Below, in pieces: positions 21,345-49,591 of a stretch of 64,000 nucleotides of DNA. The stretch's first letter is position 1; each line of letters begins with the position of its first letter. Made by a program: the position numbers and the translations under genes. This DNA is from Thermodesulfobacteriota bacterium (GTDB lineage: Bacteria > Desulfobacterota > UBA8473). The stretch lies in NCBI GenBank assembly GCA_040757775.1, contig JBFLWQ010000007.1:65728-129727 (forward strand), read 5' to 3'. Below the pieces are notes generated by a model. The model was not told the origin of the DNA and made no database searches. It saw only the letters and a list, made by a program, of their open reading frames with translations.

Positions 21345-21362
21345 AAAGTGGGGAGGATAAAG

Positions 21363-22028
21363 ATGGAACTTAAAGACGCCATAAGGAAAAGGCAGAGCAT
21401 TAGAGCATTTAAACCCAATCCCGTCCCAAGAGATATCCTGGTCAAGATAATGGAAGATGCCATTTTGGCCCCATCTTGGGGAAACACTCAGCCATGGGAG
21501 TTTACGATAGTTGGGGGTGATACGGCAAAGAGGCTTGCTGAAGAATTATCTAATAACCACGTGAATAAGGTTCCTTACAACCCGGATATTGGGATGCCTG
21601 AACAGTGGCCAGATTCTAATATGAATAGATACAGAGAGGTAGGTAAAGGGCTTTTTGAGGCCCTGTCGATAGAGAGAGAAGACAAGATAAAAAGGGATCA
21701 ACACTACGTAAATATGTTCAGGTTCTTTGGTGCCCCAAACGTGATCTACATATATATCGATAAAGAACTGGGAACCTATTCGGTCCTTGACGTTGGGATA
21801 ATTACCCAGAACATCTCGTTACTTGCAACTGATTATAGCCTTGGGACCTGTATCGAGGCCGCCGCAGCGAGATATCCTGACATAGTTAGGAAACACCTGA
21901 ATATCCCCAATTCTAAAAAGATTGTTCTTGGGATAGCCATTGGTTACCCCGACTGGGACTCTCCGTATAACAAGTTCAGAAGCAGCAAAGAAAATCTGGA
22001 TGCCCTTGTGAAATGGGTTGATGTGTAA
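21363..22028 (+). CDS. Nitroreductase family protein
   Basis: RQSIRAFKPNPVP...APSWGNTQPW motif. A GGAGG SD lies before ATG 21363. Confidence 0.8.
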   Translation: MELKDAIRKRQSIRAFKPNPVPRDILVKIMEDAILAPSWGNTQPWEFTIVGGDTAKRLAEELSNNHVNKVPYNPDIGMPEQWPDSNMNRYREVGKGLFEALSIEREDKIKRDQHYVNMFRFFGAPNVIYIYIDKELGTYSVLDVGIITQNISLLATDYSLGTCIEAAAARYPDIVRKHLNIPNSKKIVLGIAIGYPDWDSPYNKFRSSKENLDALVKWVDV

Positions 22029-22201
22029 TGCCAATTCAGACACTGGACTCCAGACGCTAGAGACCAAACTGATCTTCCCTCCTTTTAGTGGTTACATCGA
22101 AGAGCTTAAAGATGTTTGCATGCCTATACAACACCATCACCCCCTATCAACGACACCTCAGGGTTTTATACGATTCGAAAAAAGACTCTTGAAGGATATG
22201 C

Positions 22202-25200
22202 ATGAAAAACTTTATTACAAACAACAGCGAAACTAATCTAAGAAAACGCTTGATAGAATTGATTAAGAAAAGCGATGAATTAAAATTTTTGGTAGGGTTT
22301 TTCTATTTTTCCGGAATAAGAGAGTTATATGAGGGTTTAAAAGAAAAACCAGATATAACCATCAAGGTTTTAGTAGGGTTAAATGTCGATAAAACAAATT
22401 TCGGGCTTCTCGAATTTGCTGACCAGGATAAGCAGTTATCAGATGAAGAAAGAAGTTATAAATTTTTACAATCAGTTAAAAAATCGATTAATTCAGAAGA
22501 TTTTGATACACAGGAATTTTATCAGCAGGTGAGATTTTTTATTAAACTCATAAGCGATGGCAAACTAATCATTCGGAAGACATATAACCCGAATCACGCG
22601 AAAATTTATTTGTTTAAATTAGAAGAAGGCCAAGTCAAAAGGAACTTATTTATTACCGGAAGCAGTAATTTGACAAAAGCCGGAATCACAACCCAGGAGG
22701 AGTTTAATGTTGAGATAAGCGACTTTGGCTTTGATGATGCAGAAGAATATTTTGATAGATTATGGGATGAGGCAGTAAAGATAACCGAAGATGATGTCAC
22801 TAAAAGGAAATTAATAGAGACAGTTGAAAAAGAGACCCTTGTTAAAGATATTACGCCCTTTGAGGCTTTTGTTTTAGTCCTTAAAACCTATCTTGACTCA
22901 TTTGAACAAAAAGAGGTTGGGCAGTCGCTGATTAAAATATTAGAAGAAAACGGCTACACTACTTATCAATATCAGATTGACGCAGTAAAACAGGCGCTTG
23001 CAATTATAGAGAAAAACAACGGGGTTATCATTGCTGATGTTGTTGGTTTGGGCAAGACAATCATTGCCTGTGCCGTAGCAAGAGAATTAAAAAAACGTGG
23101 TGTTGTCATTTGTCCGCCAGGCATTGTAGGTGATAAGAACAAGAACTCCGGATGGATGAAATACACCGAAGAATTTCGGCTATATGATTGGGAAGTCAGG
23201 TCGCTCGGTGATTTAGAGAATATAGCCGATTTTGTGTATAAGGCAAGAGACATTGAAGTAGTGATTATAGACGAGGCGCATCGTTTCAGAAATCAGGACA
23301 TAAAGAACTATGAATATTTAAAAAACATCTGCCGCAATAAAATTGTTATTTTGCTCACCGCTACACCATTTAATAACAGGCCCGGCGATATCCTGTCTTT
23401 ACTAAAGCTCTTTATTACCCCAAAGAAATCGTCAATAACTTTAGAAAATAATCTTGTTGATAGATTCAGGGTTTTCAAAGGAACCTTTGATAGACTTGCT
23501 TACATAAGAAAGTATCATAGCTCTCCAAACGAATACAAAAGGAGAAAAGCAGAAGATTACTATAAGGGTCTTTTTGAAGAAGCATCTATAAATCTGTATA
23601 AAGTAAAACAGAGAGCACATTATCTTGCCAGACAAATCAGAGATGTGATAGAGCCTGTTACTATCCGGCGCAACCGCCTTGACCTGCAAAACAATCCTTT
23701 TTACAAAGATGAAGTCAAAAACCTCTCTAAGGTTAAAGACCCAAATGAATGGTTTTTTGAATTAACCAAAAAGCAGTCAGAATTTTACGACCAGATTGTC
23801 AGCCATTATTTTGGCGACCCTGATGAAGGCGGGCAATTCAATGGCGCAATCTATCGGCCATTTGAATACGAAGTTGAGCGTGAAAAAGTTATTGGTGAGA
23901 AACTAACTGAGAGAGAAAATTTTCAGTTTATCCAACAGCGCAACCTGTATGACTTTATGCGGAGGTTGATAGTCAAACGTTTTGAGAGTTCTTTCGGGTC
24001 CTTTGAACAGAGTATTAAGAACTTTAAAGAAATTACTGAGATTGCCCTTCAGTTTATCAATAAAACCCAGAAGTATATCCTTGACCGCTCTCTTTTATAC
24101 AAAATTTATGATTTGGATCTAGACCAGATTGAAGAATACCTGAAAGATTATTCTGAAAAGATAAGAAATGGAGATTACCCTAAAAACCATAAGATTTATG
24201 ATTTGAATAAATTGAAATACAAAGACGATTTCCTTGCCCACATAAACGCAGATTTGACTCTTTTTGATAATATTTTGAAAGAACTATCAGCCTTAAATTT
24301 GGTTAAAAACGACCCAAAGGCTGAATGCCTGTTGAAAAATATCAAGGATGTATTAAAACAAAAGCCCAAAAAGGGTGAGCCTAAGAGAAAAATTATAATC
24401 TTTTCTGAATATCTTGATACAGTCAGATATCTTGAGCCAATTTTGAAAAAACAGTTCTGCGAAAGATTGCTGGTAATAGGCGGAGACCTGTCGTCATCAA
24501 AGATAATGAATATAAATAAGAATTTTGATGCCTCATATGGCAGACGGGAAGATGAATATGATATCCTCCTTGCCTCTGACAGAATCTCCGAGGGCTTTAA
24601 CTTAAACCGTGCCGGCATGGTGATTAATTATGACATCCCATGGAACCCTGTCAGGGTAATCCAGCGCGTGGGCCGCATAAACCGTATCAGCAAAAAGGTC
24701 TTTGACGAGCTTTATATAGTGAATTTCTTTCCTACGGAAAAAGGTGCAGAGCTTGTAAAATCACGGGAGATTGCCAGCAATAAGATGTTTTTAATTCATA
24801 ACACCCTCGGTGAAGACGCAAAGATATTTGATATTGACGAAGAGCCGACCCCTTCAGGATTGTATGAGAGAATACAACAAAACCCGGACAATTTGGAACA
24901 GGAAGGCTTTTATACCAAAATGCTGACAAAATATCTGGAAATCAAAAGAGGAAATCCAGCACTTATTAAAGATTTAAAGAATTATCCGTCTCGTATAAAG
25001 GTTGCCAAAAAATATGGTGAAAATGAGCTTTTAGTCTTTCTTAAAAAAGGAAAACTATATATTCATAGCGTTAAATATAATGCTGAGAAAGACAACTGCC
25101 TGTCTGCAGTGCCTACGGCACAGGCGGGGATATATCAGCCAACCTTTGAGGAAGTCTTTGATAAAATCGTTTGTGATAAAGATGAAGAAAAACTTCCTTT

Positions 25201-25585
25201 AAGCAATGTGTTCTGGGATTGCTATGAAAAGGTAAAGAAATTCAGGGAACATCGTACCGTGCCTGTGAGTGAGCAAAGTCTGGAACAGAAGGCGTTGAAT
25301 AATCTCAACACATTCATAAAAAATCCATGGGAAGAATTGTTGCCGTACATGGATTTTTTAAGAACCCTGCGCGAGGACATAATTGATTACGGCACACTCT
25401 CTGACTACACCCTGCGTCGCATCGCCAATCTTCTAAATTCAAATGATAACAATCGTAAAAAAGCAATTATCGAAATATCAGCCCTGAAAGATGAGATTGG
25501 AGAAGACTATCTCCAAAAAGAGAAGGACAAGCAGAAAGATTTATCTAAAGAAATAATTATTGCAATAGAAAATCAGAAAATATAA
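22202..25585 (+). CDS. Fusion protein: N-terminal PLD-family (HKD) nuclease domain + SNF2-family helicase (DEAH) + uncharacterised ~270-aa C-terminal domain
   Basis: Single HxK...GSxN motif (NHAKIYLF...ITGSSNLT) at residues ~130-160. SNF2 motif I ADVVGLGKT, motif II VVIIDEAHRF, TATPFNN, and helicase-C QRVGRINRI. AAGGA SD. AT-rich codon usage. Confidence 0.85.
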   Translation: MKNFITNNSETNLRKRLIELIKKSDELKFLVGFFYFSGIRELYEGLKEKPDITIKVLVGLNVDKTNFGLLEFADQDKQLSDEERSYKFLQSVKKSINSEDFDTQEFYQQVRFFIKLISDGKLIIRKTYNPNHAKIYLFKLEEGQVKRNLFITGSSNLTKAGITTQEEFNVEISDFGFDDAEEYFDRLWDEAVKITEDDVTKRKLIETVEKETLVKDITPFEAFVLVLKTYLDSFEQKEVGQSLIKILEENGYTTYQYQIDAVKQALAIIEKNNGVIIADVVGLGKTIIACAVARELKKRGVVICPPGIVGDKNKNSGWMKYTEEFRLYDWEVRSLGDLENIADFVYKARDIEVVIIDEAHRFRNQDIKNYEYLKNICRNKIVILLTATPFNNRPGDILSLLKLFITPKKSSITLENNLVDRFRVFKGTFDRLAYIRKYHSSPNEYKRRKAEDYYKGLFEEASINLYKVKQRAHYLARQIRDVIEPVTIRRNRLDLQNNPFYKDEVKNLSKVKDPNEWFFELTKKQSEFYDQIVSHYFGDPDEGGQFNGAIYRPFEYEVEREKVIGEKLTERENFQFIQQRNLYDFMRRLIVKRFESSFGSFEQSIKNFKEITEIALQFINKTQKYILDRSLLYKIYDLDLDQIEEYLKDYSEKIRNGDYPKNHKIYDLNKLKYKDDFLAHINADLTLFDNILKELSALNLVKNDPKAECLLKNIKDVLKQKPKKGEPKRKIIIFSEYLDTVRYLEPILKKQFCERLLVIGGDLSSSKIMNINKNFDASYGRREDEYDILLASDRISEGFNLNRAGMVINYDIPWNPVRVIQRVGRINRISKKVFDELYIVNFFPTEKGAELVKSREIASNKMFLIHNTLGEDAKIFDIDEEPTPSGLYERIQQNPDNLEQEGFYTKMLTKYLEIKRGNPALIKDLKNYPSRIKVAKKYGENELLVFLKKGKLYIHSVKYNAEKDNCLSAVPTAQAGIYQPTFEEVFDKIVCDKDEEKLPLSNVFWDCYEKVKKFREHRTVPVSEQSLEQKALNNLNTFIKNPWEELLPYMDFLRTLREDIIDYGTLSDYTLRRIANLLNSNDNNRKKAIIEISALKDEIGEDYLQKEKDKQKDLSKEIIIAIENQKI

Positions 25586-25731
25586 ATCTGCTAGAATGCT
25601 TTGGTATCTGTGGCAGAAAAAATTAAATTTCAAAATCTACAACAAACCCCCTATCATTGCAGACTATTGACATAATTGCCGAAATGGAGCAATATCCAAT
25701 TTAGTTAAACTAAAATGGAGGTTATTCCAGA

Positions 25732-25824
25732 ATGAAAATATTCGATAGAATCCTTAATATCAAACTCCCACCCAAACAATCTGCTTTCTTATGGGGCGCA
25801 AGAAAGACAGGGAAGAATGCCTGA
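25732..25824 (+). pseudogene. 30-codon remnant of the N-terminus of a COG1373-type AAA+ ATPase
   Basis: MKIFDRILNIKLPPKQSAFLWGARKTGKNA* retains an SD and a Walker-A-like FLWGARKTGK, but terminates just before the methyltransferase gene. Confidence 0.4.
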
Positions 25825-25855
25825 TTAAGGTTTATCCTTATCATTGAGGAGTTAC

Positions 25856-28800
25856 ATGCCAGAATTGTATAACAATGCAAGAAAAATATTATATGACATA
25901 ATTGAAGATTTTAGCCCCGATAAATTTATTCGCTTTTTCCGTGAGAAAAGCCGTGCCTTCACTCCAAGAGAAGAAGAGTTGTTCCAATATGACGATGATA
26001 ATTTCAGGAACGGTGTAAATCTTGGTGAAATTCAGTTTGCACAGGATGAGAAGATGCTTGTCTGTGCATTCGAGGCAAGCCAGCCACTTTCAGAACGAAG
26101 CGGCAAGAAGGCGCAGTATGAGAAGGGAAAGAAAATCCTTAAAGAAAGTCAGTCAGAAGCGGGCATTTTTATCTTCTATGACCCCCGGGGTAATTTCCGT
26201 TTTTCTCTGATTTATGCCAATTATCTTGGAACCCGCAGAGACTGGAGCGCCTTTCGACGGTTTACTTATTTTGTAAACCCGGAATTTACCAACAAAACCT
26301 TTCTACAAAGAATTGGAGGTGAAGATAACGATGATAGTTTTTCGTCTTTAGAAAAAATCAAAGACGTGTTTTCTGTAGAGAAAGTTACTAATAAGTTCTT
26401 TGACGATTTTAGAGTAATTTTTGAGCGGACCAAACATGAATTTGAGAAACAAAATAAAAATACAGTTTGCCTTTGGCTAAAGGACAGATATACAGATGAA
26501 GAATATAAAGAACAGATAAATAGATTTGTTTATACTTTTCTGGGTAGGATTGTTTTTGTGTATTTCTTACAGCGTAAAGGTTGGATAGAAAATCAAGTTA
26601 ATTATATTAGAAAAACGCTTGAGAATAATAGCAATACAAGTCTTTACTTAAGTTTTTTCCAGCCTTTATTTTTTGATGTCTTTGCCAAGAAAGAAAGCGA
26701 ACGGCCAGCAGAAATAAAAAAACAGTATAAAGATACCCCTTATCTTAATGGCGGTCTTTTTGAAAGAAGTGAACTAGAAAACAATTTACAAGAAAAAGGC
26801 ATTTTTATTTTTTTTGATGATAAGTTTATCCGAGATATTATTCTAAATTTCTTTGAAAATTATAACTTTACCATAGATGAAAATTCACCGGATGACCAAG
26901 AAGTTTCAATTGATCCAGAAATGTTGGGCAAGGTTTTTGAGAATACCCTAGCTGAAGAAGAACGAGGCAAAAAAGGGACTTTTTACACGCCAAGAGAAGT
27001 TGTTCACTTTATGGTAAAGGATTCTTTGTGGCAGTTTTTGCAAAATGAAACAAAAATTAACAAAGAAAAACTCCATCAGTTAATTTACGATAAAGAAGAA
27101 ATAGAACCTCTTACCCTAAAAAAAGAAGAAATTAGATTGCTTGATGACAAATTGGAGCATATTAAAGTTCTGGATCCCGCAGTCGGCTCCGCGGCTTTCC
27201 CGGTAGAGATGATGCAGGTTTTGGTTAATTTACGGAAACGGCTTAATGTAAATGTCGGCAAAAATATAAATGAAGTGTCGCTCAAAAAACATTTTATAAA
27301 AGAAAATCTTTATGGCGTGGATATTGACCCTGGCGCTATTGAAATTGCCAAGCTTCGTTTGTGGCTGGCATTGATAGTAGATTATGAAAAATCCGAAGCC
27401 GAACCGCTCCCTAATTTGGATTTTCAATTCCGCGTTGGCAACTCGTTACAAGAAAAAATTGATGATATTGATATTTTCCAAGAAGAAATGGTTGGCCAAT
27501 ATGGTTTATTTAAGAGCGAGTCAGAATATGAAAAAATGAAGGATAGAATGATTGCTATAAAAGATAAATTTTACCTTTCAGATAATGAAAATGAAAAAAA
27601 GAGATTAAAAAAACAGTTTGATAATTTGGAACATGAATTAATTCAAGCAGTTTTAAAAAATTATGGCAATCAGTTTAAATCTCAAATTGATAATGTTGAT
27701 ACTTTAGTAAAGGGGCAAAGGAAAGTAAAAGTTCAAAAGGAAATTGAGAAAACATTAAAAATAATCGCGAAATTGGAACAAAAAATTAAAGACGGCACTT
27801 ATAAATTATTCAAACCTGATTTTCATTTTTCCGAAGTATTTGATCGTAAAGATAACAATAATAATAAAATCGGCGGTTTTGATATTGTTATCGGTAATCC
27901 GCCCTATGGTGTTAAAGTAGAAAATGATATTAAAGAATGGCACGGTCTTGGAAGCAAAGACAGTTATGGTATTTTTATTTCAACGGCACTAAAAAGATTT
28001 CTCAAGCCGGGTGGGATTTTATCTTTTATCGTTTCTGATACTTGGTTAACGATTAAAACCCATAAACCATTGCGGGAGCAGGTATTGGGAAAGCAATTAC
28101 ATAAAATAATTCGTGTACACCAGGATTGTTTTGAGGCGACTGTCAATGCCTGCATAATGAGCGTGACGAACAGATCAGATAACGACAGCAAATTGATAAC
28201 AGCTGATTTTACAAATATTTCAACCCGAAAAGAAATAGAAGAATTACGGGAAAAACTTTATCATTTAGATGATTTTATCGGTCAATCCACGTCCAAGCTA
28301 GCCGTATATGAATATAATCAAGGATTGATTAAAACCAATTCTAATCTGCCGATTTTTGTCGGCAGCCCAAAATTGTTTCAGTTTATGTCTTACCCTCATG
28401 GAGTATCTTCTCTATATCCCAATTTTGCGGATGTAAAAAAGGGTATAGATACAGGGGAAAACGATTATTTTTTGTATCAGAATCCTGTGGCCAGAGGTAA
28501 CTACAGACCGGTTCCGCAGGAAAGAATCCTTAATGAATATGAGATATCTCTACTTACAATTGATGAACGACTTCACGGAATAGATCCCCAAAAACATAAA
28601 GGGAAATACATTATTCCATATGACAAAGGGGGAGAATCTGACACTGATGAGGGTTGGTTGCCGAATTATTTTGTTCCAACAGATTATTTTATAGACTGGT
28701 CGCGAGTATCTGTCAAAGAATTAAGAAGCAGAACACAGCGAGATTCAGGAAAAAATAAGGCATCTATCAGAAATGAAGACTCTTGGTTTAAAAAAGGAAT

Positions 28801-29227
28801 TACCTTTTCTTTGACTGGACAATATGCTCCTACTGTTAGATTAAACTCTACTGCGTTATTTGATAACAATGGGTCAACCATCTTTCCAAATGAAGAATTG
28901 AAAACACATTTATTATTGGGGTTGCTTGCATCAAAGTTAATGAAATATTTTTTTAAGAATTTTATTGATCATACCGTGCACGCACAAGTTAATGATTTTA
29001 AAGGTTTGCCAATAGTAATTAGTTTTAATCCTGCGGTTGATAAACTTGTTCGCCAAATTTTTGTAAAACAAAAACAAAATCCCCGCTATGATTATATGAG
29101 CAACGAGCAGAAAGAAATTGATAAATTGGTTTATGAAATGTACGGCTTGAACGCCGAAGATATTCGCGAAGTGGAAACTTGGTATGCCCGCCGATATCCA
29201 AAATTGGCGAGATTTTGCGAAGTGTAA
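25856..29227 (+). CDS. MmeI/PglX/Eco57I-like gamma-class N6-adenine DNA methyltransferase with TRD, no recognisable PD-ExK nuclease; frame terminates one nt before its conserved C-terminal helix
   Basis: PYLNGGLF (~aa 300), GTFYTPREVV, motif I LDPAVGSAAF, motif IV GNPPYG. GAGGAG SD before ATG 25856 (the ORF track starts at TTG 25844). The +1 frame from 29229-29308 encodes KQIDQMVYNLYELTEDEIKIVEGKG*. Confidence 0.85.
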   Translation: MPELYNNARKILYDIIEDFSPDKFIRFFREKSRAFTPREEELFQYDDDNFRNGVNLGEIQFAQDEKMLVCAFEASQPLSERSGKKAQYEKGKKILKESQSEAGIFIFYDPRGNFRFSLIYANYLGTRRDWSAFRRFTYFVNPEFTNKTFLQRIGGEDNDDSFSSLEKIKDVFSVEKVTNKFFDDFRVIFERTKHEFEKQNKNTVCLWLKDRYTDEEYKEQINRFVYTFLGRIVFVYFLQRKGWIENQVNYIRKTLENNSNTSLYLSFFQPLFFDVFAKKESERPAEIKKQYKDTPYLNGGLFERSELENNLQEKGIFIFFDDKFIRDIILNFFENYNFTIDENSPDDQEVSIDPEMLGKVFENTLAEEERGKKGTFYTPREVVHFMVKDSLWQFLQNETKINKEKLHQLIYDKEEIEPLTLKKEEIRLLDDKLEHIKVLDPAVGSAAFPVEMMQVLVNLRKRLNVNVGKNINEVSLKKHFIKENLYGVDIDPGAIEIAKLRLWLALIVDYEKSEAEPLPNLDFQFRVGNSLQEKIDDIDIFQEEMVGQYGLFKSESEYEKMKDRMIAIKDKFYLSDNENEKKRLKKQFDNLEHELIQAVLKNYGNQFKSQIDNVDTLVKGQRKVKVQKEIEKTLKIIAKLEQKIKDGTYKLFKPDFHFSEVFDRKDNNNNKIGGFDIVIGNPPYGVKVENDIKEWHGLGSKDSYGIFISTALKRFLKPGGILSFIVSDTWLTIKTHKPLREQVLGKQLHKIIRVHQDCFEATVNACIMSVTNRSDNDSKLITADFTNISTRKEIEELREKLYHLDDFIGQSTSKLAVYEYNQGLIKTNSNLPIFVGSPKLFQFMSYPHGVSSLYPNFADVKKGIDTGENDYFLYQNPVARGNYRPVPQERILNEYEISLLTIDERLHGIDPQKHKGKYIIPYDKGGESDTDEGWLPNYFVPTDYFIDWSRVSVKELRSRTQRDSGKNKASIRNEDSWFKKGITFSLTGQYAPTVRLNSTALFDNNGSTIFPNEELKTHLLLGLLASKLMKYFFKNFIDHTVHAQVNDFKGLPIVISFNPAVDKLVRQIFVKQKQNPRYDYMSNEQKEIDKLVYEMYGLNAEDIREVETWYARRYPKLARFCEV

Positions 29228-29231
29228 AAAA

Positions 29232-29299
29232 CAGATTGACCAGATGGTCTATAACCTCTATGAGCTGACAGAAGATGAGATAAAGATTGTGGAGGGGAA
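29232..29299 (+). repeat. 68-bp direct repeat copy 1 (3' end of MTase gene plus SD)
   Basis: 66/68 identical to 29867-29934. Ends in GTGGAGGGGAA immediately before the ATG of the next gene. Confidence 0.85.
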
Positions 29300-29308
29300 G
29301 GGGTAACA

Positions 29309-29590
29309 ATGCAAATTAAATATTCAAAGCACATTGAGGCAAGGATTGTCATGAGAAAGATTGAATACAGCCTGCCAAAAGAAATCTTCAAAAATGCAGA
29401 AGAGCGATTCATAGATGCAGAAACAGGGCATACAATAGCTGTTAAGAAGGCAGTATTATATGGAAAAGAAAGAGATATAATGGTAGCATATAGATATGAA
29501 GATATAGATGTTAAGCTATTAACTATACATCCCTTAAAAGAAGGACAAAAAGAAAACCGAGTTAAATCAGGAAGATGGAGGAAAATCTAA
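29309..29590 (+). CDS. DUF4258-family protein (putative toxin of a DUF4258/DUF2283 TA pair)
   Basis: 93 aa. MQIKYSKHIEARIVMRKIEY... matches DUF4258 size and pattern. Its stop overlaps the downstream start (TAATG). Confidence 0.6.
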   Translation: MQIKYSKHIEARIVMRKIEYSLPKEIFKNAEERFIDAETGHTIAVKKAVLYGKERDIMVAYRYEDIDVKLLTIHPLKEGQKENRVKSGRWRKI

Positions 29591-29799
29591 TGGACGATTT
29601 CAAGGTTTTTTATGATGAAGAAGAGGATATCCTTTACCTTGCAAAAGAAGGTGAGGAAGCCGAAGTTGTAGAAGTATCTCCGGGTGTGAATATGGAACTT
29701 GACAGTAACGGTAATCTTATGGGTATTGAACTCTTCAAAGCCTCTCATATGTTTAAAAATGTTCTTAAACCAATGGAGAAGAAACTTCAATTTGCATAA
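29589..29799 (+). CDS. DUF2283-family protein (putative antitoxin)
   Basis: About 70 aa, ...FYDEEEDILYL...VNMELDSNGNLMGIELFKAS, the typical DUF2283 pattern. Translationally coupled to the upstream ORF. Confidence 0.6.
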
Positions 29800-29866
29800 C
29801 TGCTGCCCCCAAATCCTCACTGCCCAAAAGAAAGACCCCAATACCTACACATCGGCACTGGAAAGG

Positions 29867-29934
29867 CAGATTGACTAGATGGTCTATAACCTCTATGGGC
29901 TGACAGAAGATGAGATAAAGATTGTGGAGGGGAA
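29867..29934 (+). repeat. 68-bp direct repeat copy 2 (decayed: in-frame TAG)
   Basis: CAGATTGACTAGATGGTCTATAACCTCTATGGGCTGACAGAAGATGAGATAAAGATTGTGGAGGGGAA. Confidence 0.85.
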
Positions 29935-29937
29935 AAG

Positions 29938-30300
29938 ATGAAATATAACCCTGATATTCTGACATTCACCACCACCGTTCTATACGATTAAAAGGATATG
30001 ATTATTCAAAGGCAGGGGCATATTTTGTAACGATATGCACACAAAACAGGGAATGTTTGTTAGGCGATGCAGTAGATGGTGAAATGAGATTGAACGAAAT
30101 GGGTAAAAGAATAATGGCATGTTGGCAGGGAATACCTGAACATTTTAGAGATGTTGAAATTGAGGAATTTATTGTAATGCCAAATCATGTTCATGGGATT
30201 ATTGTTATAAATCATATGTAGGGGCGCAATTTATTGCGCCCGATAGAACAGATACGTCATTACAGGGGAATCAGGACGTGATGAATCAGGGAGATGGATG
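29938..30300 (+). pseudogene. RAYT / IS200-like (Y1) tyrosine transposase pseudogene, frameshifted and 3'-truncated
   Basis: MKYNPD... then after a frame change HHHRSIRLKGYDYSKAGAYFVTICTQNRECL...IVMPNHVHGIIVI* (HuH-type IMPNHVH). A second frame change follows, then truncation at the thiL stop. Confidence 0.6.
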
Positions 30301-30304: not shown

Positions 30305-31315
30305 TTACAAAAAATGATCGAAGCCTTTTTTTTCAACTGTGTATCTCTTCCCACTATCATCTAAAACCGTAATCCCTTCCTCTGGTTCTACAATCTCTCC
30401 AATATGGGTAACCTTAGTCTTAAATCTGTTTTTCATCCTGTTAAATAAGTTAATATTACCCTTATCAACGGTGAATAAAAGCTCATAGTCCTCTCCGCCA
30501 CCGAGGGCTAAATCTATTGGTCTGTCGGTAAATTCACGGGAGACCTTTTGAAAGGCTTCCGAAGCAGGGAGTTTTTCCAACCAGATTTTTGCCCCCACTT
30601 TGCTTTGTTCACAGATATGCCCAAGGTCAGAGATAAGACCGTCGCTAATATCAATCATGGCCGAGGCAATGCGGTTCTCTGCAATCAACCTGCCTTCGGC
30701 TACCCTGGGAGTGGGGTTACAGTGCCTTTCCACTAAATCCTTAAATCTTTCCTCAATCCTGGATAGTTCTTTTCTATTCATGAGAATTTCAAACCCCAGA
30801 GCCGAATCTCCCAGCGTCCCCGTTACAAATACTTGATCTCCAACATGGGCATTATCACGATAGATTACATTGCCAGGAAAGGCTTCTCCCAGTAAAGTAA
30901 TGTTAATGTTGAGCTTTTCTGGAGAAAAAGAGGTGTCGCCACCAACGACATGAGTTTGGAAGGAATTAGCGGTCTCCTTAATGCCATCTGCAAATTCATC
31001 GATAAATTCTACAGATATCTTTGGGGGAATGGCAAGGGAGACCAAGAAGAACTTTGGGGTTCCTCCCATAGCAGCGATATCACTAATATTAACTGCCAGG
31101 GACTTCTTTCCTAAATTATATGCAGATATAAACCTCAGGTCAAAATGAACATCTTCAATAAGGGAATCACTGGTGGAGAGCAGTAATCTTCCTTTTTGAA
31201 TCTCAATAGCACAGGCATCATCGCCTATACCTTTAATGATATCTTGATGGGGGAAAGCGAGCTTAGTTTTTATTCTCTCTATCAGCCCGAATTCTCCCAC
31301 CTCTTTGATTTCCAA
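30305..31315 (-). CDS. thiL: Thiamine-monophosphate kinase
   Basis: [16 protein letters not shown]...GDDACAI AIR-synthase-related fold. Confidence 0.9.
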
Positions 31316-33665
31316 CTCTACTTCCCTTTAGAAGCGCTGCCTCTAGCACGTCATCCATCTTTTTAGCGAAAACAAAAGTAATCTTCTTTTTTATGTAGTT
31401 AGGGATATCATCCAGGTCTTTCCTGTTTCTCTCAGGAATAATTACAGTCCCAATCTTTGCCCGCAATGCAGCTAAAGTCTTCTCTTTCAACCCTCCAATT
31501 GGAAGCACTCTTCCTCTCAGGGTTATTTCACCTGTCATAGCTATATCCTTATTGACAGGGGTTTTTGAAAGGGCAGAGATTAAGGCAGTAGCCATAGTTA
31601 CCCCTGCTGATGGACCGTCTTTGGGGATAGCCCCTGCCGGAATATGGATATGGGCATCCTGTTTTTTGTAGAAATCTTCGTCTAATTTCAACTCCTTTGC
31701 CTTTGAACGGGCATAGCTCAGGGCAGCCTGTGCAGATTCTTTCATTACATCTCCCAGTTGTCCGGTAAGGATTAAGTCCCCTTTCCCTTTCATGGTGGAT
31801 GCTTCTATGTGCAAGATTTCCCCGCCTGCCTGTGTCCAGGCAAGGCCAGTCGCAACTCCAGCCTCACTTATTGCTTGCTCCTCTTCAGGCAGGTACACAG
31901 GTGTGCCCAGGTATTTGTGCAGGTTTCCTCTATTAACCCTGGAAACCCCTTTTTTCCCTTCAGCGATCCTTCGGGCTACTTTTCTACATATACTCGCAAT
32001 CTCCCGTTCAAGGTTTCTAAGTCCGGCTTCTTGAGTATAGTGGGAAATTATCTGTAATATAGCTTCATTCGACATCTTCATATCTTTTTCTGTAATTCCG
32101 TTTTCTTCTAACTGTAGAGGGAGTAAAAACTTTAGCGCTATCTTTAACTTTTCTTCTTCTGTGTATCCTGAGAGAGTAATGACCTCCATTCGGTCTTTCA
32201 AGGCAGGGATGATTGGGTCTACGAGATTTGCAGTGGTAATAAACATAACATTTGAAAGATCAAAAGGGACATTCAGATAGTGGTCACTAAAAGCAAAGTT
32301 CTGCTCGGGATCCAAAACTTCTAAAAGGGCGGCAGAAGGGTCTCCCCGGAAATCTGCCCCCACTTTATCTATTTCATCCATCATGAAAACCGGATTATTT
32401 GATCCTGCTTGTTTGATGCTCTGAATTATCCGCCCTGGCAGTGCTCCTACATAGGTTCTTCTGTGTCCTCTAATCTCTGCTTCGTCTCTAACACCACCAA
32501 GGGATATCCTTGTAAACTTACGCCCTAAAGCCCTGGCAATGGATTTGCCCAACGATGTTTTTCCCACTCCTGGTGGGCCAACAAAGCAAAGGATAGGGCC
32601 TTTCTTCTTTTTGCTCAGCTTGCGGACACCCAGGTATTCCAGTATCCTTTCTTTAACCTTTTCTAAATTATAATGATCCTCATCCAGTACTTTTTTAGCA
32701 GCCTTTATATCGAGGTTGTCTTCGGTAATTATCTTCCAGGGAAGCTCTACCAGCCAATCAAGATAGGTTCTAACTATAGATGCCTCTGCTGCATCAGGGT
32801 GCATCTGTTCCAGCCTGTCCATCTGTTTGTTGGCTTCTTTCTCAACCTCTTTAGGCATCTTTGCCTTTTTGATCTTCTTCTTGAAGTCTATTATTTCTTT
32901 TGTCCTTTCATCTACATCTCCCAGTTCATTCTTGATTGCCCGAAGCTGTTCCCTCAGGAAGTAATCTCGCTGTGTCTTGGTCATTTCTTCTTTAGCCTGG
33001 GACTGTATCTTTGCCTGCATGCTTGAGAGCTCTACTTCTTTGCTTAAAAGCTCATTAACCTTTATGAGGCGATCAATAGGGTTAAAAATCTCCAGGACCT
33101 GCTGAGCTTCCTCAATCTTCAAATTCAGGTTTGAAGCCACCAGATCTGCCAGTCTTCCCGGGTCTTCAATATTATTAAGGATCATTACAACATCTGAAGA
33201 CAACAAGCCTCTTAAAGAAAGTACCTTCTCACTGTGTTCCTTAACACTTCGCATCAGGGCTTCTGCCTCCAGGGGCAGTTCAGGCATAATCGGTTCCTTG
33301 ATCGTATCGATATTCACCATGTAACAAGGTTTCTGTTGTATGTACTCAATTATACGCCCTCTCATTAAACCCTGAACCAGAATCTTTACCCTTCCGTCAG
33401 GGAGTTTTAGCATTCTCATAACCGTAGCCACCGTTCCCACAGAATAGATACTCTCGGGTTTCGGATCTTCAACCGTCGGGTCCTTCTGAGTAGCTAAGAA
33501 TATCAAACGGTTTTTTGATAATGCCTCATCAACGGCCTTGATGGACCCTTCTCTACCTACAAACAATGGTACAATCATGTATGAAAATATGACGACGTCT
33601 CTGACAGGCAATAAGGGCAGGGTATCCGGAATCTCAACATCTTCTCTCTTTATATCATAATCCAT
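31263..33665 (-). CDS. lon: ATP-dependent protease Lon (paralogue 1)
   Basis: LON N-domain, AAA+ GPPGVGKTS, and S16 protease PKDGPSAG. The 3' end overlaps the thiL start by about 50 nt. Confidence 0.95.
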
Positions 33666-44293: not shown

Positions 44294-44302
44294 AAAAAGG
44301 AT

Positions 44303-45679
44303 ATGGACAAGCTTACCATGAAAAAGAGTATCTTGATAGTTGACGATGAAGAAGGTATAAGGAAATCTTTAAGCGGGATATTAAAAGACGAGGGTTTCAA
44401 TGTGTCTCTGGCTAGCGATGGAATGGAGGCTATCCAGAAGGTTGATAAGGAGAGGCCTGATTTAGCGCTTCTCGACATCTGGATGCCTGGACTTGATGGT
44501 ATCGAGGTTTTGAAAAGGATAAAAGCAATGTCTCCGAAGCTGGTGGTTATTATGATTTCAGGACACGGTACGATAGAGACGGCAGTTAAGGCGACAAAAC
44601 TAGGGGCATATGACTTTATTGAGAAACCACTATCCCTGGAGAAAGTCGTCTTAACAATAAACCATGCCCTCAGTTTCCAGCGATTGGAAAAGGAAAATGA
44701 GATTCTGCGCGAGAAGATTCACAAGGGGTATGAAATAATAGGCAACAGTGAAGCGATTACAAAACTAAAACAGCAGATTGCAGTAGCTGCCCCAACCAAT
44801 GGGTGGATTTTAATATCAGGAGAAAATGGAACAGGAAAGGAATTGGTAGCCCGTTCAATCCACAGGAAGAGTCTCAGGGCCGATAATCCATTTGTTGAAG
44901 TAAACTGTGCTGCAATTCCGGAAGAATTGATTGAAAGCGAGTTGTTTGGCCACGAAAAAGGTGCCTTCACAGGGGCGTCTTTTCAAAAGAAGGGTAAGTT
45001 CGACCTGGCCAATGGAGGCACTATCTTTCTGGATGAGATAGCTGATATGAGTTTGAAAACTCAGGCAAAGATACTGAGGATTCTCCAGGAACAGAAGTTT
45101 GAACGGGTAGGTGGAACTAAGAGCATCAGCATAGATGTTAGGGTAATCGCTGCTACCAATAAGGATTTAAAGAAAGAGATGGATACTGGAACCTTTAGGG
45201 AAGACCTCTATTATAGGTTGAATGTTATTCCCCTCGAGGTTCCTCCTCTTAGGGAAAGAAGGGAAGATATACCCCTGTTGGTATCGCAATTTTTCAGGGA
45301 GTTTTGTACAGAGAATGGGAAAGAGCCAAAAGAGATTTCAAAGGAAGCTTTAGATATACTGATAGGGTATGACTGGCCCGGTAATGTTCGGGAATTAAAA
45401 AATGTTATTGAGAGGCTAGTGATTATGACCCCCGGGATAGTAATCGTGGCAGAAGACATCCCAGCTTCGATAACAGGAGAGTTAAGGACAGAGGGGAAGG
45501 ATTTGCTTTTTCAGCATAAGTCCTTGAAGGTTGCAAGGGATGAATTTGAAAGACTATTTATTAAAGAAAAGCTGAAGAGCTTTGGTGATAATGTGTCCGA
45601 AACAGCCCATGCTATAGGTATTGAAAGAACCCACCTGCACAGAAAAATCAAAAGCCTGGGCATAGAGATGGAAAGATAG
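44303..45679 (+). CDS. Sigma-54-dependent response regulator (NtrC/NtrX family)
   Basis: Receiver DDEEGIR...D, AAA+ GENGTGKE, GAFTGA, and a C-terminal HTH. Confidence 0.9.
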   Translation: MDKLTMKKSILIVDDEEGIRKSLSGILKDEGFNVSLASDGMEAIQKVDKERPDLALLDIWMPGLDGIEVLKRIKAMSPKLVVIMISGHGTIETAVKATKLGAYDFIEKPLSLEKVVLTINHALSFQRLEKENEILREKIHKGYEIIGNSEAITKLKQQIAVAAPTNGWILISGENGTGKELVARSIHRKSLRADNPFVEVNCAAIPEELIESELFGHEKGAFTGASFQKKGKFDLANGGTIFLDEIADMSLKTQAKILRILQEQKFERVGGTKSISIDVRVIAATNKDLKKEMDTGTFREDLYYRLNVIPLEVPPLRERREDIPLLVSQFFREFCTENGKEPKEISKEALDILIGYDWPGNVRELKNVIERLVIMTPGIVIVAEDIPASITGELRTEGKDLLFQHKSLKVARDEFERLFIKEKLKSFGDNVSETAHAIGIERTHLHRKIKSLGIEMER

Positions 45680-45734
45680 CATAAAGTTGTTCTGCAGACC
45701 CCGCTAGAAAAAATGAAGGATTGGAGGACCTAAA

Positions 45735-47396: not shown

Positions 47397-47414
47397 TAAT
47401 AGACAGGCACTTGC

Positions 47415-48206: not shown

Positions 48207-48326
48207 GTTGTACCTTCCATTTTCCGTTCGATATGATTTTCGTTTAGCCCAATAATTCTGTCGATTCACGGTAAGCCACTTCCGACGGTCTCATTTTCCC
48301 CTCCCGTATTGGCACTTATCGTTCTT

Positions 48327-48725
48327 CTACTTTATTATAACCTTATGTCCTGTCAAGTGCAATAATATGACAACCAGTATAGCTATCACAAGAATTGCAA
48401 TCACCACACCGAGACCATCACCACCGACCTTCAGATCATCAAGCTGAAGGGCAAGCTTATGTATCTGATAGTCACTGAGCTGCGAGAGCCTGTTACTAAT
48501 TTCATCCTGTGTGAAGCCCAATTTTTCAAGTCTTTCCTTTATTATCTTTGTTTCCAAAACCTTCTGTACACCCTCCATATCTGAGGCTCTAGCAGCCTTT
48601 GTAATGACCACTGCCTCTGAGGAAGCAAAAGAAGCCTCAACCCTGGGAACAATACCAATAATAAACATGGCAAAAACAAGATACCATACGACCTGCTTCA
48701 TGAATGGCATTCTCATCATTCTCAT
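48327..48725 (-). CDS. Hypothetical protein with signal peptide and C-terminal TM anchor
   Basis: ORF with N-terminal and C-terminal hydrophobic segments. No recognisable motif. Confidence 0.4.
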   Translation of the reverse strand: MRMMRMPFMKQVVWYLVFAMFIIGIVPRVEASFASSEAVVITKAARASDMEGVQKVLETKIIKERLEKLGFTQDEISNRLSQLSDYQIHKLALQLDDLKVGGDGLGVVIAILVIAILVVILLHLTGHKVIIK

Positions 48726-49530: not shown

Positions 49531-49591
49531 TTAAGATCGAACAGATTTGCGTGGATCAATTGAGTTCCTACTGATTATCCGGGAATCTCCC

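What the first reader, a model, noticed from the sequence alone, without database searches (positions are those of the whole stretch)
22202..29308. Two-gene PLD-nuclease::SNF2-helicase + MmeI/PglX-like N6-adenine methyltransferase cassette: a candidate minimal DISARM-like or type-III-like defence system
The sequence shows two adjacent co-oriented 1127-aa ORFs in an AT-rich island. ORF1 has a single HKD/PLD nuclease motif (NHAKIYLF...GSSNLT) fused to a complete SNF2 ATPase (GLGKT, DEAH, helicase-C QRVGRINRI) and a roughly 270-aa C-terminal domain with no motif I can place. ORF2 is a gamma-class adenine MTase of the Eco57I/MmeI/PglX lineage (YLNGGLF, FYTP, LDPAVGSAAF, NPPYG) with a TRD-sized C-terminal half. 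Its N-terminal domain aligns in pattern to the MmeI nuclease domain but lacks the D...ExK catalytic residues, so any cleavage must come from the PLD partner. By established knowledge, DISARM class 1 uses separate DrmC (PLD), DrmD (SNF2) and DrmMI (Eco57I-like MTase) together with the DrmA/DrmB core. Here PLD and SNF2 are fused and no DrmA/DrmB (DUF1998) is present. This is analogous to Type III (Mod + helicase-nuclease Res) or split Type ISP logic, but built from different domain families. I cannot match this architecture to a named system from memory.
Basis: partly seen in the sequence, partly recalled or inferred. Interest (0 to 1): 0.85.

Follow-up and report, generated by a model that had tools for sequence, protein, structure and literature searches.

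The report
Two-gene SNF2-nuclease plus methylase restriction system
This is a real, widely spread two-gene bacterial defence cassette: a DNA-motor protein fused to a nuclease, paired with a site-specific DNA methylase. It most likely works as an ATP-driven restriction-modification system; others have seen the gene pair in passing, but I found no name or test for it.

Summary
ORF1 (22202-25585, 1127 aa) carries one HKD/PLD nuclease motif, a complete SNF2 ATPase and an unassigned C-terminal region of about 280 aa. ORF2 (true start 25856, ends 29227, 1123 aa) is an Eco57I/MmeI-type N6-adenine methyltransferase with a C-terminal specificity half. The pair sits in a low-GC island between housekeeping genes.

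It is not DISARM, BREX or a DUF499 (Hma/BR, probably MANTIS) system. No DrmA/B, PglZ or BrxC/DUF499 gene occurs in the 64 kb window or in about 30 related loci. Only these two gene families recur.

The link between the two genes is strong:
- Every ORF1 homologue with downstream sequence has an ORF2-type gene, and 4 of 4 look-ups starting from the methylase found an adjacent HKD-SNF2 gene.
- The first ~190 aa of ORF2 track ORF1 in identity, while the methylase and specificity parts stay at 24-30%.
- A 97%-identical ORF1 elsewhere pairs with a different methylase, and DNA similarity stops at that domain boundary.

Best reading (about 0.6): a split, Type ISP/III-like, ATP-dependent restriction-modification system with interchangeable methylase cassettes. 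It is a new variant of a known kind, noted in passing before but unnamed in what I could read. Interest is moderate.

The parts
22202..25585 (+). ORF1, the R subunit: HKD/PLD nuclease fused to an SNF2 ATPase, plus an unassigned C-terminal region (1127 aa; MEW6615088.1 'helicase-related protein')
   Evidence: ORF, translation, Pfam. Homologues of 61-97% identity occur in many phyla. Exact match to the deposited protein.
22352..22798 (+). Single HKD (PLD-family) nuclease domain, residues 51-199; HxK...GSxN motif at residues 132-158 (nt 22595-22675)
   Evidence: PLDc_2 at 32 bits and RE_NgoFVII at 30.6 bits. The motif HAKIYLFKLEEGQVKRNLFITGSSNLT is kept even in homologues of 28-39% identity and is at least 90% conserved in alignment A2.
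22949..24688 (+). SNF2-type ATPase core: N-lobe with GLGKT (282), DEAH (357) and TATP; a long inter-lobe insert; C-lobe (Helicase_C, 718-829) with QRVGRINR (821)
   Evidence: SNF2-rel_dom, ResIII and Helicase_C hits. The best solved relative is the Sulfolobus SNF2/Rad54 ATPase 1z63. The motifs are conserved across the family.
24749..25582 (+). ORF1 C-terminal region (residues 850-1127), no known family; candidate docking surface for ORF2
   Evidence: No Pfam hit. The AlphaFold model is poor (pLDDT 60.7), so no fold search was run on it. The region is conserved among close homologues but is lost from the tblastn alignments to distant ones, L031 and L032.
25732..25824 (+). Relic (30 codons) of an AAA_14/DUF4143 ATPase gene between ORF1 and ORF2
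   Evidence: Sequence. The intact 388-aa AAA_14/DUF4143 gene sits at exactly this position in the 97%-identical relatives L033/L034. blastn homology ends at 25816.
25856..29227 (+). ORF2, the M/S subunit: adaptor domain, helical spacer, gamma-class N6-adenine methyltransferase and C-terminal specificity half (1123 aa; MEW6615089.1 'DNA methyltransferase')
   Evidence: PADLOC's best hits are Type IIG models, and none of them covers residues 1-170.
25856..26425 (+). Conserved N-terminal domain of ORF2 (about 190 aa), proposed adaptor to ORF1; an alpha/beta fold weakly like the N-terminal nuclease domain of Type IIG enzymes, without a canonical catalytic motif
26489..26785 (+). Helical spacer (DUF7814 / MmeI_hel-like)
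   Evidence: Pfam DUF7814 at 37.5 bits; MmeI_hel at 18.5 bits, below its cut-off.
26918..28132 (+). Gamma-class N6-adenine methyltransferase domain: motif I DPAVGSAAF (nt 27173-27199) and motif IV NPPY (nt 27896-27907)
   Evidence: Eco57I at 92.8 bits, N6_Mtase at 43.4 and MmeI_Mtase at 33.9. Motifs located. The GSAAF variant is conserved in 13 of 16 members of this methylase sub-clade.
28133..29224 (+). C-terminal half of ORF2, presumed target-recognition domain plus conserved C-terminal tail
   Evidence: It aligns with the C-terminal parts of PglX and Type II MTase models. It is the most variable part between homologues. Its role in specificity is inferred, not shown.
29227..29299 (+). Relic of the 3' end of a different methylase allele (encodes QIDQMVYNLYELTEDEIKIVEGKG*); first copy of a 73-nt direct repeat
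   Evidence: Repeat D1. The translation matches the C-terminal tails of ORF2 homologues in L001, L006 and L008.
29862..29934 (+). Second copy of the methylase-tail relic (95% identical, with an internal stop)

Best explanation
The cassette is a two-subunit, ATP-dependent restriction-modification system.

ORF2 is the recognition and modification subunit. Its C-terminal half reads a short, probably asymmetric, DNA site, and its gamma-class methyltransferase marks an adenine there, possibly on one strand only. That labels host DNA as self.

ORF1 is the restriction subunit. It is an SNF2 double-strand-DNA translocase carrying one HKD nuclease half-site. The conserved ~190-aa N-terminal domain of ORF2 no longer has a recognisable nuclease motif and is weakly similar in fold to the nuclease domain of Type IIG enzymes. 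It serves as the adaptor that holds or activates ORF1, probably through ORF1's unassigned C-terminal region.

On an unmodified site the complex switches ORF1 into ATP-driven translocation. Two HKD domains come together, either because ORF1 is already a dimer or because two complexes collide. They form one active site and cut the DNA.

ORF1 and the adaptor domain form a constant module. The methylase-plus-specificity part is an exchangeable cassette that is swapped by recombination to change specificity.

Shown here (computationally): the domain content, the intact and conserved catalytic motifs, the strict two-gene linkage, co-variation of the adaptor domain with ORF1, and the recombination breakpoints.

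Inferred: physical contact between the two proteins, translocation, cleavage by HKD dimerisation, strand-specific methylation, and the defence phenotype.
For: 1. Parts. ORF1 has a single HKD motif and a complete SNF2 motif set. ORF2 has intact motifs I and IV of a gamma-class N6A methyltransferase. These motifs are conserved down to 28% identity.

2. Linkage. Clustering all ORFs of 27 loci gives only two recurrent families: ORF1 in 27 loci and ORF2 in 23. The other four loci are cut short. No third conserved gene exists. Four look-ups starting from the methylase all find an adjacent HKD-SNF2 gene. Even 137-146-aa fragments of the N-terminal domain lie just downstream of ORF1 homologues. Distant pairs (28-39% identity) with the same architecture occur in Synechocystis pSYSX, Parabacteroides, Prevotella and Allomeiothermus.

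3. Coupling. The ORF2 N-terminal domain tracks ORF1 in identity: ORF1 / N-terminal domain = 83/62, 78/66, 77/69, 76/68, 39/33, 33/28 %. The spacer, methylase and C-terminal parts stay at 24-30%.

4. Cassette exchange. An ORF1 that is 96.7% identical in DNA (L033) is followed by a methylase that is 34% identical. DNA similarity ends at 26397, about residue 181 of ORF2. Relics of other alleles' 3' tails lie downstream.

5. Restriction-modification-like genomic behaviour. The ORF1-ORF2 junction collects RhuM/Fic, DUF1016, AbiEi-like, NYN, AAA_21+RloB, AAA_14/DUF4143 and PIN/VapC genes. From my own knowledge, these are the genes usually found embedded in Type I operons.

6. Literature on a distant member. 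In Synechocystis, the 1100-aa Eco57I-type methylase two genes downstream of the HKD-SNF2 gene fits slr6050 by plasmid, length and Pfam domain. It is tentatively assigned GAAGGC m6A, and its knockout could not be fully segregated (PMC6105098). That is what is expected if it protects against a linked nuclease.

7. From established knowledge: single-HKD nucleases (Nuc, BfiI, SauUSI) form their active site by dimerising. Type ISP and Type III enzymes use one-strand methylation of asymmetric sites together with ATP-dependent communication along the DNA.
Against: - No experiment exists for this clade. No methylome, phage challenge or biochemistry is available.
- Contact between ORF1 and the ORF2 N-terminal domain is inferred from co-variation only. 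That pattern could also arise because the two segments are inherited as one linked block.
- The ORF1 C-terminal region could not be modelled.
- In the window the two genes are separated by 270 nt holding a gene relic, and the locus shows recent rearrangement, so this particular copy could be partly decayed.
- The Synechocystis homologue is distant (28%), and its authors did not link the failure to segregate with the helicase gene.
- The MANTIS preprint, which may describe related biochemistry, could not be read.
Confidence: 0.6

Rival explanations
1. ORF2 is an autonomous Type IIG/IIL restriction-modification enzyme whose N-terminal domain is an active, non-canonical nuclease. ORF1 is an accessory: a processivity or fragmentation factor, or a separate helicase-nuclease. 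It is not the sole cutter.
Against: No conserved D...(D/E)xK motif is present, and the strand that should carry ExK has no conserved charged residue. The Type IIG models do not cover residues 1-170. There is no Pfam hit to an MmeI N-terminal domain. The domain is never found without an adjacent HKD-SNF2 gene and co-varies with it. The HKD motif of ORF1 is under strong conservation.
Confidence: 0.15
2. The pair is the visible part of a larger BREX-, DISARM- or BR/Hma-like system. It either needs further unlinked components, or it blocks phage replication without cutting, with SNF2 remodelling or stalling DNA-bound complexes.
For: The domain families are the same as DrmD/DrmC/DrmMI, and as the HKD-Swi2/Snf2 effector plus N6-methylase of Type-2 BR systems (PMC12839542). 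ORF2 aligns with PglX models over 700 residues.
Against: There is no DrmA/B, PglZ, BrxC/DUF499 or DUF3780 in the 64 kb window or in any related locus. All NCBIfam scores lie far below their cut-offs. The pair moves between phyla as a two-gene unit inserted among housekeeping genes. A conserved HKD motif argues for cleavage.
Confidence: 0.12
3. The genes are not a defence system. They would be an epigenetic regulator (possibly phase-variable) plus a DNA-repair or remodelling helicase that merely travel together.
For: Related Type IIG-like methylases are phase-variable and alter gene expression, and some show programmed inversions next to PLD-SNF genes (PMC9881135).
Against: The cassette lies in a low-GC island. 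It shows patchy, cross-phylum distribution at 61-83% identity. Toxin-antitoxin and abortive-infection-type genes are embedded between the two genes. Gabija-like OLD/UvrD genes are neighbours. A nuclease domain is conserved, and specificity cassettes are exchanged. No invertible repeats occur in this locus.
Confidence: 0.05

Closest known systems
Type ISP restriction-modification enzymes (LlaGI, LlaBIII)
   Same: The same four activities are present: a nuclease, an SF2 ATP-driven dsDNA translocase, a gamma-class N6-adenine methyltransferase and a target-recognition domain. The expected logic also matches: an asymmetric site, one-strand methylation, and cleavage after translocation or collision. 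This comparison rests on established knowledge.
   Different: Here the activities are split over two polypeptides. The nuclease is HKD/PLD rather than Mrr/PD-(D/E)xK. The motor is SNF2 rather than Type I HsdR-like. An extra conserved adaptor domain sits on the methylase subunit.
Type-2 BREX-related (BR) systems / Hma, and probably MANTIS
   Same: The effector has the same architecture: an N-terminal HKD nuclease fused to a Swi2/Snf2 helicase, encoded beside an N6-adenine methyltransferase. It is predicted to act like a restriction-modification system (PMC12839542).
   Different: Those systems are built around a DUF499/BrxC-like AAA+ ATPase, and Type 2 also has DUF3780. Neither is present here or in any related locus. 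Their methylase is described as BrxXI-like / COG1743, not an Eco57I/MmeI-type enzyme with a fused specificity half. The PADLOC HmaA hit covers only the helicase C-lobe. The MANTIS text could not be read. Term counts show BrxC 11, AAA+ 13 and PLD 6.
Type IIG / IIL enzymes (MmeI, DrdV, Eco57I, BpuSI; Cj0031 family)
   Same: ORF2 is homologous over the helical spacer, the methyltransferase and the C-terminal part. The N-terminal domain occupies the position of their nuclease domain and has a weak fold resemblance to it.
   Different: The canonical nuclease motif is absent. There is an obligatory HKD-SNF2 partner. ATP dependence is expected.
DISARM class 1 (DrmA, DrmB, DrmC, DrmD, DrmMI)
   Same: The domain families match: SNF2 helicase (DrmD), PLD nuclease (DrmC) and Eco57I-like N6A methylase (DrmMI). 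The best PADLOC hits for the ORF1 C-lobe are DrmD models.
   Different: The defining DrmA/DrmB (DUF1998) core is absent. PLD and SNF2 are fused. The NCBIfam DrmD score is 155.6 against a cut-off of 610.
SauUSI and CglI/NgoAVII (PLD nuclease working with an SF2 ATPase)
   Same: Both combine a single-HKD nuclease with an ATP-hydrolysing helicase-like motor for DNA cleavage. SauUSI dimerises through its PLD domain (PMC7913695 abstract; otherwise my own knowledge).
   Different: SauUSI is modification-dependent (Type IV) and has no methylase. CglI/NgoAVII have PLD and ATPase on separate proteins, with a C5 methylase and a B3-type DNA-binding domain.
Type III restriction-modification (Mod + Res)
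   Same: It is a two-gene layout: a methylase that reads the site, and an SF2 ATPase-nuclease that depends on it. One-strand methylation of asymmetric sites is expected.
   Different: Mod is a beta-class methylase that acts as a dimer. Res is a Rad25-like helicase with a C-terminal PD-(D/E)xK nuclease. The protein families therefore differ throughout.

Membership tests
DISARM class 1 | Core genes drmA (helicase) and drmB (DUF1998) in the locus | tested here: not met
   No such gene among any ORF of 330 aa or more in the 64 kb window. None in the Pfam-annotated neighbourhoods of related loci. There is no third conserved gene family in 27 loci.
DISARM class 1 | ORF1 scores as DrmD and ORF2 as DrmMI above the curated thresholds | tested here: not met
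   NF038317 DrmD scores 155.6 bits against a cut-off of 610, and only over residues 571-854. PADLOC DrmMI scores 66.9 bits against 190.4 for a Type IIG model.
BREX (types 1-6) | PglZ phosphatase and BrxC ATPase together with PglX | tested here: not met
   No PglZ or BrxC in the window or the related loci. PglX NCBIfam NF033452 scores 163 bits against a cut-off of 500.
DUF499-centred BREX-related systems (Hma; Type-2 BR) | DUF499 AAA+ ATPase in the operon | tested here: not met
   Absent from the window and all related loci. The definition comes from PMC12839542.
DUF499-centred BREX-related systems (Hma; Type-2 BR) | Stand-alone DUF3780 gene (Type 2) | tested here: not met
   No DUF3780 appears in Pfam scans of the flanking ORFs or in the precomputed Pfam lists of neighbours.
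DUF499-centred BREX-related systems (Hma; Type-2 BR) | Helicase with an N-terminal HKD nuclease fused to a Swi2/Snf2 core | tested here: met
   PLDc_2 plus SNF2-rel_dom plus Helicase_C. The PADLOC 'HKD+Snf2' model aligns to residues 6-879.
Type IIG / IIL restriction-modification enzymes (Eco57I / MmeI family) | Gamma-class N6A methyltransferase with a helical spacer and a C-terminal specificity domain in one chain | tested here: met
   Eco57I scores 92.8 bits (cut-off 25.3), MmeI_Mtase 33.9 (cut-off 27) and DUF7814 37.5. Motifs I and IV are intact.
Type IIG / IIL restriction-modification enzymes (Eco57I / MmeI family) | N-terminal PD-(D/E)xK nuclease domain with catalytic D...(D/E)xK | tested here: not met
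Type ISP restriction-modification enzymes | Nuclease, motor, methylase and specificity domain in one polypeptide, with an Mrr-family nuclease | tested here: not met
   There are two polypeptides, and the nuclease is HKD/PLD.
Type III restriction-modification | Beta-class Mod methylase, and a Res subunit with a Rad25-like helicase and PD-(D/E)xK nuclease | tested here: not met
   The ORF2 motif order (motif I before NPPY) and its Eco57I/MmeI family membership mark it as gamma-class. ORF1 is SNF2 plus HKD.
ATP-dependent restriction-modification systems in general (functional class) | Methylation protects the host, and unmodified DNA is cut in an ATP-dependent way | not testable with these tools
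   Only indirect support exists: intact motifs, and a Synechocystis methylase knockout that could not be segregated (PMC6105098).

The most novel reading that the evidence does not exclude
This would be a distinct, very widespread and so far unnamed class of NTP-dependent restriction-modification system.

A highly conserved SNF2-HKD motor-nuclease, 61-83% identical across more than ten phyla, is programmed in trans through a dedicated ~190-aa adaptor domain. The programming comes from freely exchangeable methylase-specificity cassettes. It would be a 'Type ISP in two pieces', built from different protein families.

The conserved adaptor-coding sequence and the conserved 3' tail would act as recombination handles for switching specificity.
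Probability: 0.45. Interest if true: 0.7.

Novelty: new variant of a known kind. Interest (0 to 1): 0.55.

Why it matters
If the model is right, three consequences follow.

1. Annotation. Current pipelines split this system in two. PADLOC's best hits call ORF2 a solitary Type IIG enzyme, and the deposited name of ORF1 is a generic 'helicase-related protein'. The profile of the adaptor domain plus the start of the helical spacer finds 353 50%-identity clusters at E <= 1e-30 and 2418 at E <= 1e-10. Defence censuses may therefore mislabel a common system.

2. Comparative mechanism. An SNF2 motor coupled to an HKD nuclease and directed by a Type IIG-like methylase would be a third, independent solution to 'translocate, then cut', alongside Type I/ISP and Type III. 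It would offer a compact two-protein model for how the HKD-SNF2 effectors of DISARM and BREX-related systems are controlled.

3. Specificity switching. The constant-module / swappable-cassette organisation gives a testable route for rapid changes of specificity. A single conserved motor-nuclease accepting many recognition subunits could also be of practical interest as a programmable system.

Tried and rejected
1. DISARM, BREX and BR/Hma membership. Tested with the PADLOC and NCBIfam scores of both proteins, Pfam scans of flanking and large ORFs, and neighbourhood surveys. Rejected, because the defining core genes are absent and all scores fall below their cut-offs.

2. A hidden third component. 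The 270-nt gap between the ORFs holds only a 30-codon relic of an AAA_14/DUF4143 gene. That gene is intact in L033/L034 but absent from most loci. It is an embedded accessory gene, not a core part.

3. Structure of the ORF1 C-terminal region. The AlphaFold model was poor (pLDDT 60.7), so no fold search was run and no fold is claimed.

5. Motif I variant GSAAF as a lesion. Rejected, because it is conserved in 13 of 16 members of this methylase sub-clade.

6. Promoter and terminator scan of the island. Uninformative; fewer promoter-like sites were found than in shuffled sequence.

7. Invertible specificity cassettes, as reported for relatives in PMC9881135. No long inverted repeats occur in this locus.

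8. The MANTIS preprint (10.64898/2026.09.23.753747). It could not be opened, and only term counts were obtained.

9. The word-indexed search with the N-terminal domain alone returned only short fragments. It was used for the alignment, not for counting. The count comes from the exhaustive profile search.

Full report
**What is in the window**

Two co-oriented long ORFs occupy 22202-25585 and 25844-29227. They lie in a stretch where GC falls to 0.32-0.38, against 0.42-0.46 on either side.

The flanks are ordinary chromosomal genes. Upstream are MurJ, Ogt, XerC-type integrase, HslV, HslU, an amino-acid kinase and a nitroreductase. Downstream are an AIR-synthase-related protein, Lon, a DinG-type helicase, SSB and AlaS.

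The sequence comes from a Thermodesulfobacteriota metagenome-assembled genome. The two proteins are deposited as MEW6615088.1 ('helicase-related protein') and MEW6615089.1 ('DNA methyltransferase', 1123 aa). This fixes the ORF2 start at the ATG at 25856.

**ORF1**

Pfam finds one PLD-like/NgoFVII-type HKD domain (residues 51-199), an SNF2/ResIII N-lobe and a Helicase_C lobe (718-829). Nothing is found after about residue 850.

They are at least 90% conserved in 52 homologues and are kept in relatives of only 28-39% identity.

The nearest solved structures are generic SNF2 ATPases. A model of the C-terminal 278 residues was poor (pLDDT 60.7), so that region stays unassigned.

**ORF2**

Pfam finds DUF7814/MmeI_hel (helical spacer), then N6_Mtase, Eco57I and MmeI_Mtase. 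Motif I (DPAVGSAAF) and motif IV (NPPY) are in gamma-class order.

The unusual GSAAF version of motif I is conserved in 13 of 16 members of this methylase sub-clade, so it is not a lesion.

PADLOC's best models are Type IIG enzymes, followed by PglX. None of them covers the first ~170 residues.

**The ORF2 N-terminal domain**

This domain has no Pfam family. It models confidently (pLDDT 90) as an alpha/beta domain.

No D...(D/E)xK motif is conserved. The invariant residues are E58, E80-R-S-G-K84-K85-x-Q-Y, D109 and R115.

I therefore treat it as a probably degenerate relative of the Type IIG nuclease domain, with that assignment marked as weak.

**Is it a named system?**

- DISARM: the NCBIfam DrmD model scores 155.6 bits against a cut-off of 610, and only over the helicase C-lobe.
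- BREX: PglX scores 163 against 500.
- No ORF of 330 aa or more in the 64 kb window is DrmA, DrmB, PglZ, BrxC or DUF499.
- The PADLOC model that covers ORF1 almost end to end is 'C3a139 HKD+Snf2'. The only paper holding that name is a survey of accessory genes next to Type III CRISPR-cas cassettes, so I take it to be a gene cluster from that survey and not a defence system.
- The closest described systems are the DUF499-centred BREX-related (BR, = Hma) systems. Their Type 2 uses exactly this kind of HKD-Swi2/Snf2 effector with an N6-methylase. They are defined by a DUF499 AAA+ ATPase and, for Type 2, by DUF3780 (PMC12839542). An earlier description gives their methylase as COG1743 (PMC7641849).
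- A 2026 preprint on 'MANTIS' could not be opened. Its term counts are BrxC 11, AAA+ 13, DUF499 2, PLD 6 and SNF2 0. These point to an ATPase-containing BREX-related system, not to a two-gene one.

**Is the pair conserved?**

ORF1 has very many relatives. The best 120 are 72-97% identical and carry names from Planctomycetota, Omnitrophota, Patescibacteria and Elusimicrobiota. A genome scan adds Nitrospirota, Cloacimonadota, Armatimonadota, Desantisbacteria, Gammaproteobacteria and a DPANN archaeon.

In every related locus with enough downstream DNA, an ORF2-type gene follows.

Clustering all ORFs of 27 non-redundant loci gives only two families present in more than a handful of loci. The ORF1 family is in 27 and the ORF2 family in 23. 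The other four contigs are cut short. The next clusters are antisense shadows of ORF1 or sporadic accessory genes.

The converse test also holds. Four methylases were picked from the methylase side: P0385 and P0340 from the profile search, and P0417 and P0388 from the search with the methylase body. All four sit next to an HKD-SNF2 gene.

Even 137-146-aa fragments consisting of the N-terminal domain alone lie immediately downstream of ORF1 homologues. One is a gene split from its methylase and one is cut by an IS element.

Distant pairs with the same Pfam architecture occur in cultured organisms:
- Synechocystis PCC 6803 plasmid pSYSX (28% identity);
- Parabacteroides distasonis (32%);
- Prevotella (31%);
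- Allomeiothermus silvanus (39%, with the methylase upstream).

**Evidence that the two proteins work together**

Per-domain comparison shows that the ORF2 N-terminal ~190 residues follow ORF1 in divergence. ORF1 / N-terminal-domain identities are 83/62, 78/66, 77/69, 76/68, 74/61, 68/62, 61/50, 39/33 and 33/28 %. The spacer, methylase and C-terminal parts sit at 24-30% whatever the distance.

A direct example comes from contigs L033/L034, which carry an ORF1 97% identical in protein, in the same chromosomal context with the nitroreductase upstream. DNA identity runs as follows:
- 96.7% from 22178 to 25816;
- a 1.1 kb AAA_14/DUF4143 gene is present there and deleted here, leaving the 30-codon relic at 25732-25824;
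- identity resumes at 85.5% over 25838-26397, the N-terminal domain;
- it then vanishes, and the two methylases are 34% identical overall.

The housekeeping flank is only about 85% identical. ORF1 is thus better conserved than its neighbours, which suggests recent exchange.

Downstream of ORF2, two copies of a 73-nt repeat (29227-29299 and 29862-29934) encode 'QIDQMVYNLYELTEDEIKIVEGKG*'. This is the conserved C-terminal tail of other methylase alleles of the family. I read them as scars of allele replacement.

Together these data show a constant module (ORF1 plus the adaptor domain) and an exchangeable methylase-specificity cassette. The conserved 5' and 3' ends of the methylase gene are the likely recombination handles. 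That last step is inference.

**Restriction-modification-like genomic behaviour**

The junction between the two genes is an insertion hot spot. The inserted genes are:
- RhuM/Fic (L001, L006, L008, L039);
- DUF1016 (L007);
- an AbiEi-like gene (L016);
- NYN (L011, L020);
- AAA_21 + RloB (L004);
- a large ORF that clusters with the one annotated 'RNA-binding domain-containing protein' upstream of the HKD-SNF2 gene in L026 (L009, L032);
- RHH/PIN or VapC (L030, L031);
- AAA_14/DUF4143 (L033).

From my own knowledge, they are the genes typically embedded in Type I operons.

**Literature on relatives**

- In Prevotella intermedia 17F, two Type IIG-like genes lie downstream of an SNF2/RAD54 helicase. 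One of them was assigned GGYGAB m6A (PMC5608340).
- In Synechocystis, slr6050 is a 1100-aa Eco57I-domain protein on pSYSX. By plasmid, length and Pfam domain it fits the gene two places downstream of the HKD-SNF2 homologue. It is tentatively assigned GAAGGC m6A. The complement of that site contains no adenine, so only one strand could carry the mark. Its knockout could not be fully segregated (PMC6105098). That is the behaviour expected of a methylase protecting against a linked nuclease, although the authors did not make this link.
- A 2025 review of restriction-modification biology does not mention SNF2 and mentions PLD only for SauUSI, so it does not describe such a pair.

**Mechanism proposed**

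ORF2 recognises a short site and methylates adenine, marking self DNA. Its N-terminal adaptor domain binds or activates ORF1. On unmodified sites the SNF2 motor translocates double-stranded DNA using ATP.

ORF1 has a single HKD half-site. From established knowledge of Nuc, BfiI and SauUSI, two copies must pair to form an active site. They could do so either as a standing dimer or when two complexes meet. The DNA is then cut.

This is the logic of Type ISP and Type III enzymes, built from other protein families. The architecture, motif conservation, linkage, co-variation and cassette exchange are shown here. The contact between the proteins, translocation, cleavage, strandedness of methylation and the defence phenotype are inferred. 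I put about 0.6 on this model.

The main rival (0.15) is that ORF2 is a self-sufficient Type IIG enzyme with a non-canonical nuclease, and that ORF1 is an accessory.

**Verdict**

The system is a new variant of a known kind. It is widespread: the profile of the adaptor domain plus the start of the helical spacer finds 353 50%-identity clusters at E <= 1e-30 and 2418 at E <= 1e-10. It is conserved across phyla, has been seen before in passing, and is unnamed and untested in the literature I could read.

Interest is 0.55. A restriction-enzyme specialist would not be astonished by the logic. However, the constant motor-nuclease with an adaptor domain and swappable methylase cassettes is a clear, testable and apparently undescribed organisation.

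Noticed in passing
window 25732-25824: A 30-codon ORF (MKIFDRILNIKLPPKQSAFLWGARKTGKNA*) between ORF1 and ORF2 is the 5' relic of an AAA_14/DUF4143 ATPase gene. The intact 388-aa gene sits at exactly this position in the 97%-identical relatives L033/L034. About 1.1 kb has been deleted in the window.
   Followed up: yes
window 29227-29299 and 29862-29934: A 73-nt direct repeat (95% identical) encodes the C-terminal tail (QIDQMVYNLYELTEDEIKIVEGKG*) of a different methylase allele of this family. It is probably a scar of cassette replacement. A similar extra tail lies downstream of the methylase in L006 (19085-19369).
   Followed up: yes
window 29309-29799: Two small abutting ORFs lie between the two tail relics: a 93-aa ORF with no Pfam family (29309-29590) and a 69-aa DUF2283 protein (29590-29799). 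They look like a small toxin-antitoxin-type pair, but this was not tested. A DUF2283 gene also lies near the system in L001.
   Followed up: partly
window 30036-30221: A short ORF with a weak IS200-like Y1 transposase match (E 0.033, '...IVMPNHVHGIIVI') sits at the downstream edge of the island. It is probably a truncated REP-associated or IS200-type transposase.
   Followed up: partly
window 21353-22170 compared with 22178-25816 (against L033/L034): Between these two related genomes the housekeeping nitroreductase flank is about 85% identical in DNA, while ORF1 is 96.7% identical. ORF1 has either been exchanged recently or is under unusually strong constraint.
   Followed up: partly
L035 4639-15079 (same layout in L036): Two different HKD-SNF2 genes (1121 and 1146 aa) flank a single methylase that carries the adaptor domain. 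In L037 the order is methylase, DUF3800, HKD-SNF2. I did not examine whether two motor subunits serve one methylase.
   Followed up: no
junction between the ORF1 and ORF2 homologues in L001, L004, L006-L009, L011, L016, L020, L030-L033, L039: The junction is a hot spot for inserted accessory genes: RhuM/Fic, DUF1016, AbiEi-like, NYN, AAA_21+RloB, a large ORF (L009, L032) that clusters with the 'RNA-binding domain-containing protein' of L026, RHH/PIN or VapC, and AAA_14/DUF4143. From my own knowledge, this is the set usually found inside Type I restriction-modification operons.
   Followed up: partly
L031 (Synechocystis PCC 6803 pSYSX, record 43696-51129): The 1100-aa Eco57I-type methylase at 47827-51129 fits the published slr6050 (M.Ssp6803IV, tentatively GAAGGC) by plasmid, length and domain. 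It lies downstream of an HKD-SNF2 gene, with a VapC pair in between. Its reported failure to segregate may reflect restriction by that neighbour, a link the paper does not draw.
   Followed up: partly
window 31263-33665 and 53792-56242: The window holds two full-length Lon protease paralogues (800 and 816 aa) 20 kb apart on the minus strand.
   Followed up: no
L004 20659-23375 and L011 8438-12468: Gabija-like genes (an OLD-family ATPase/TOPRIM protein plus a UvrD helicase) lie near the system, downstream of the methylase gene(s), in two unrelated loci. This shows that the pair sits in defence islands.
   Followed up: no
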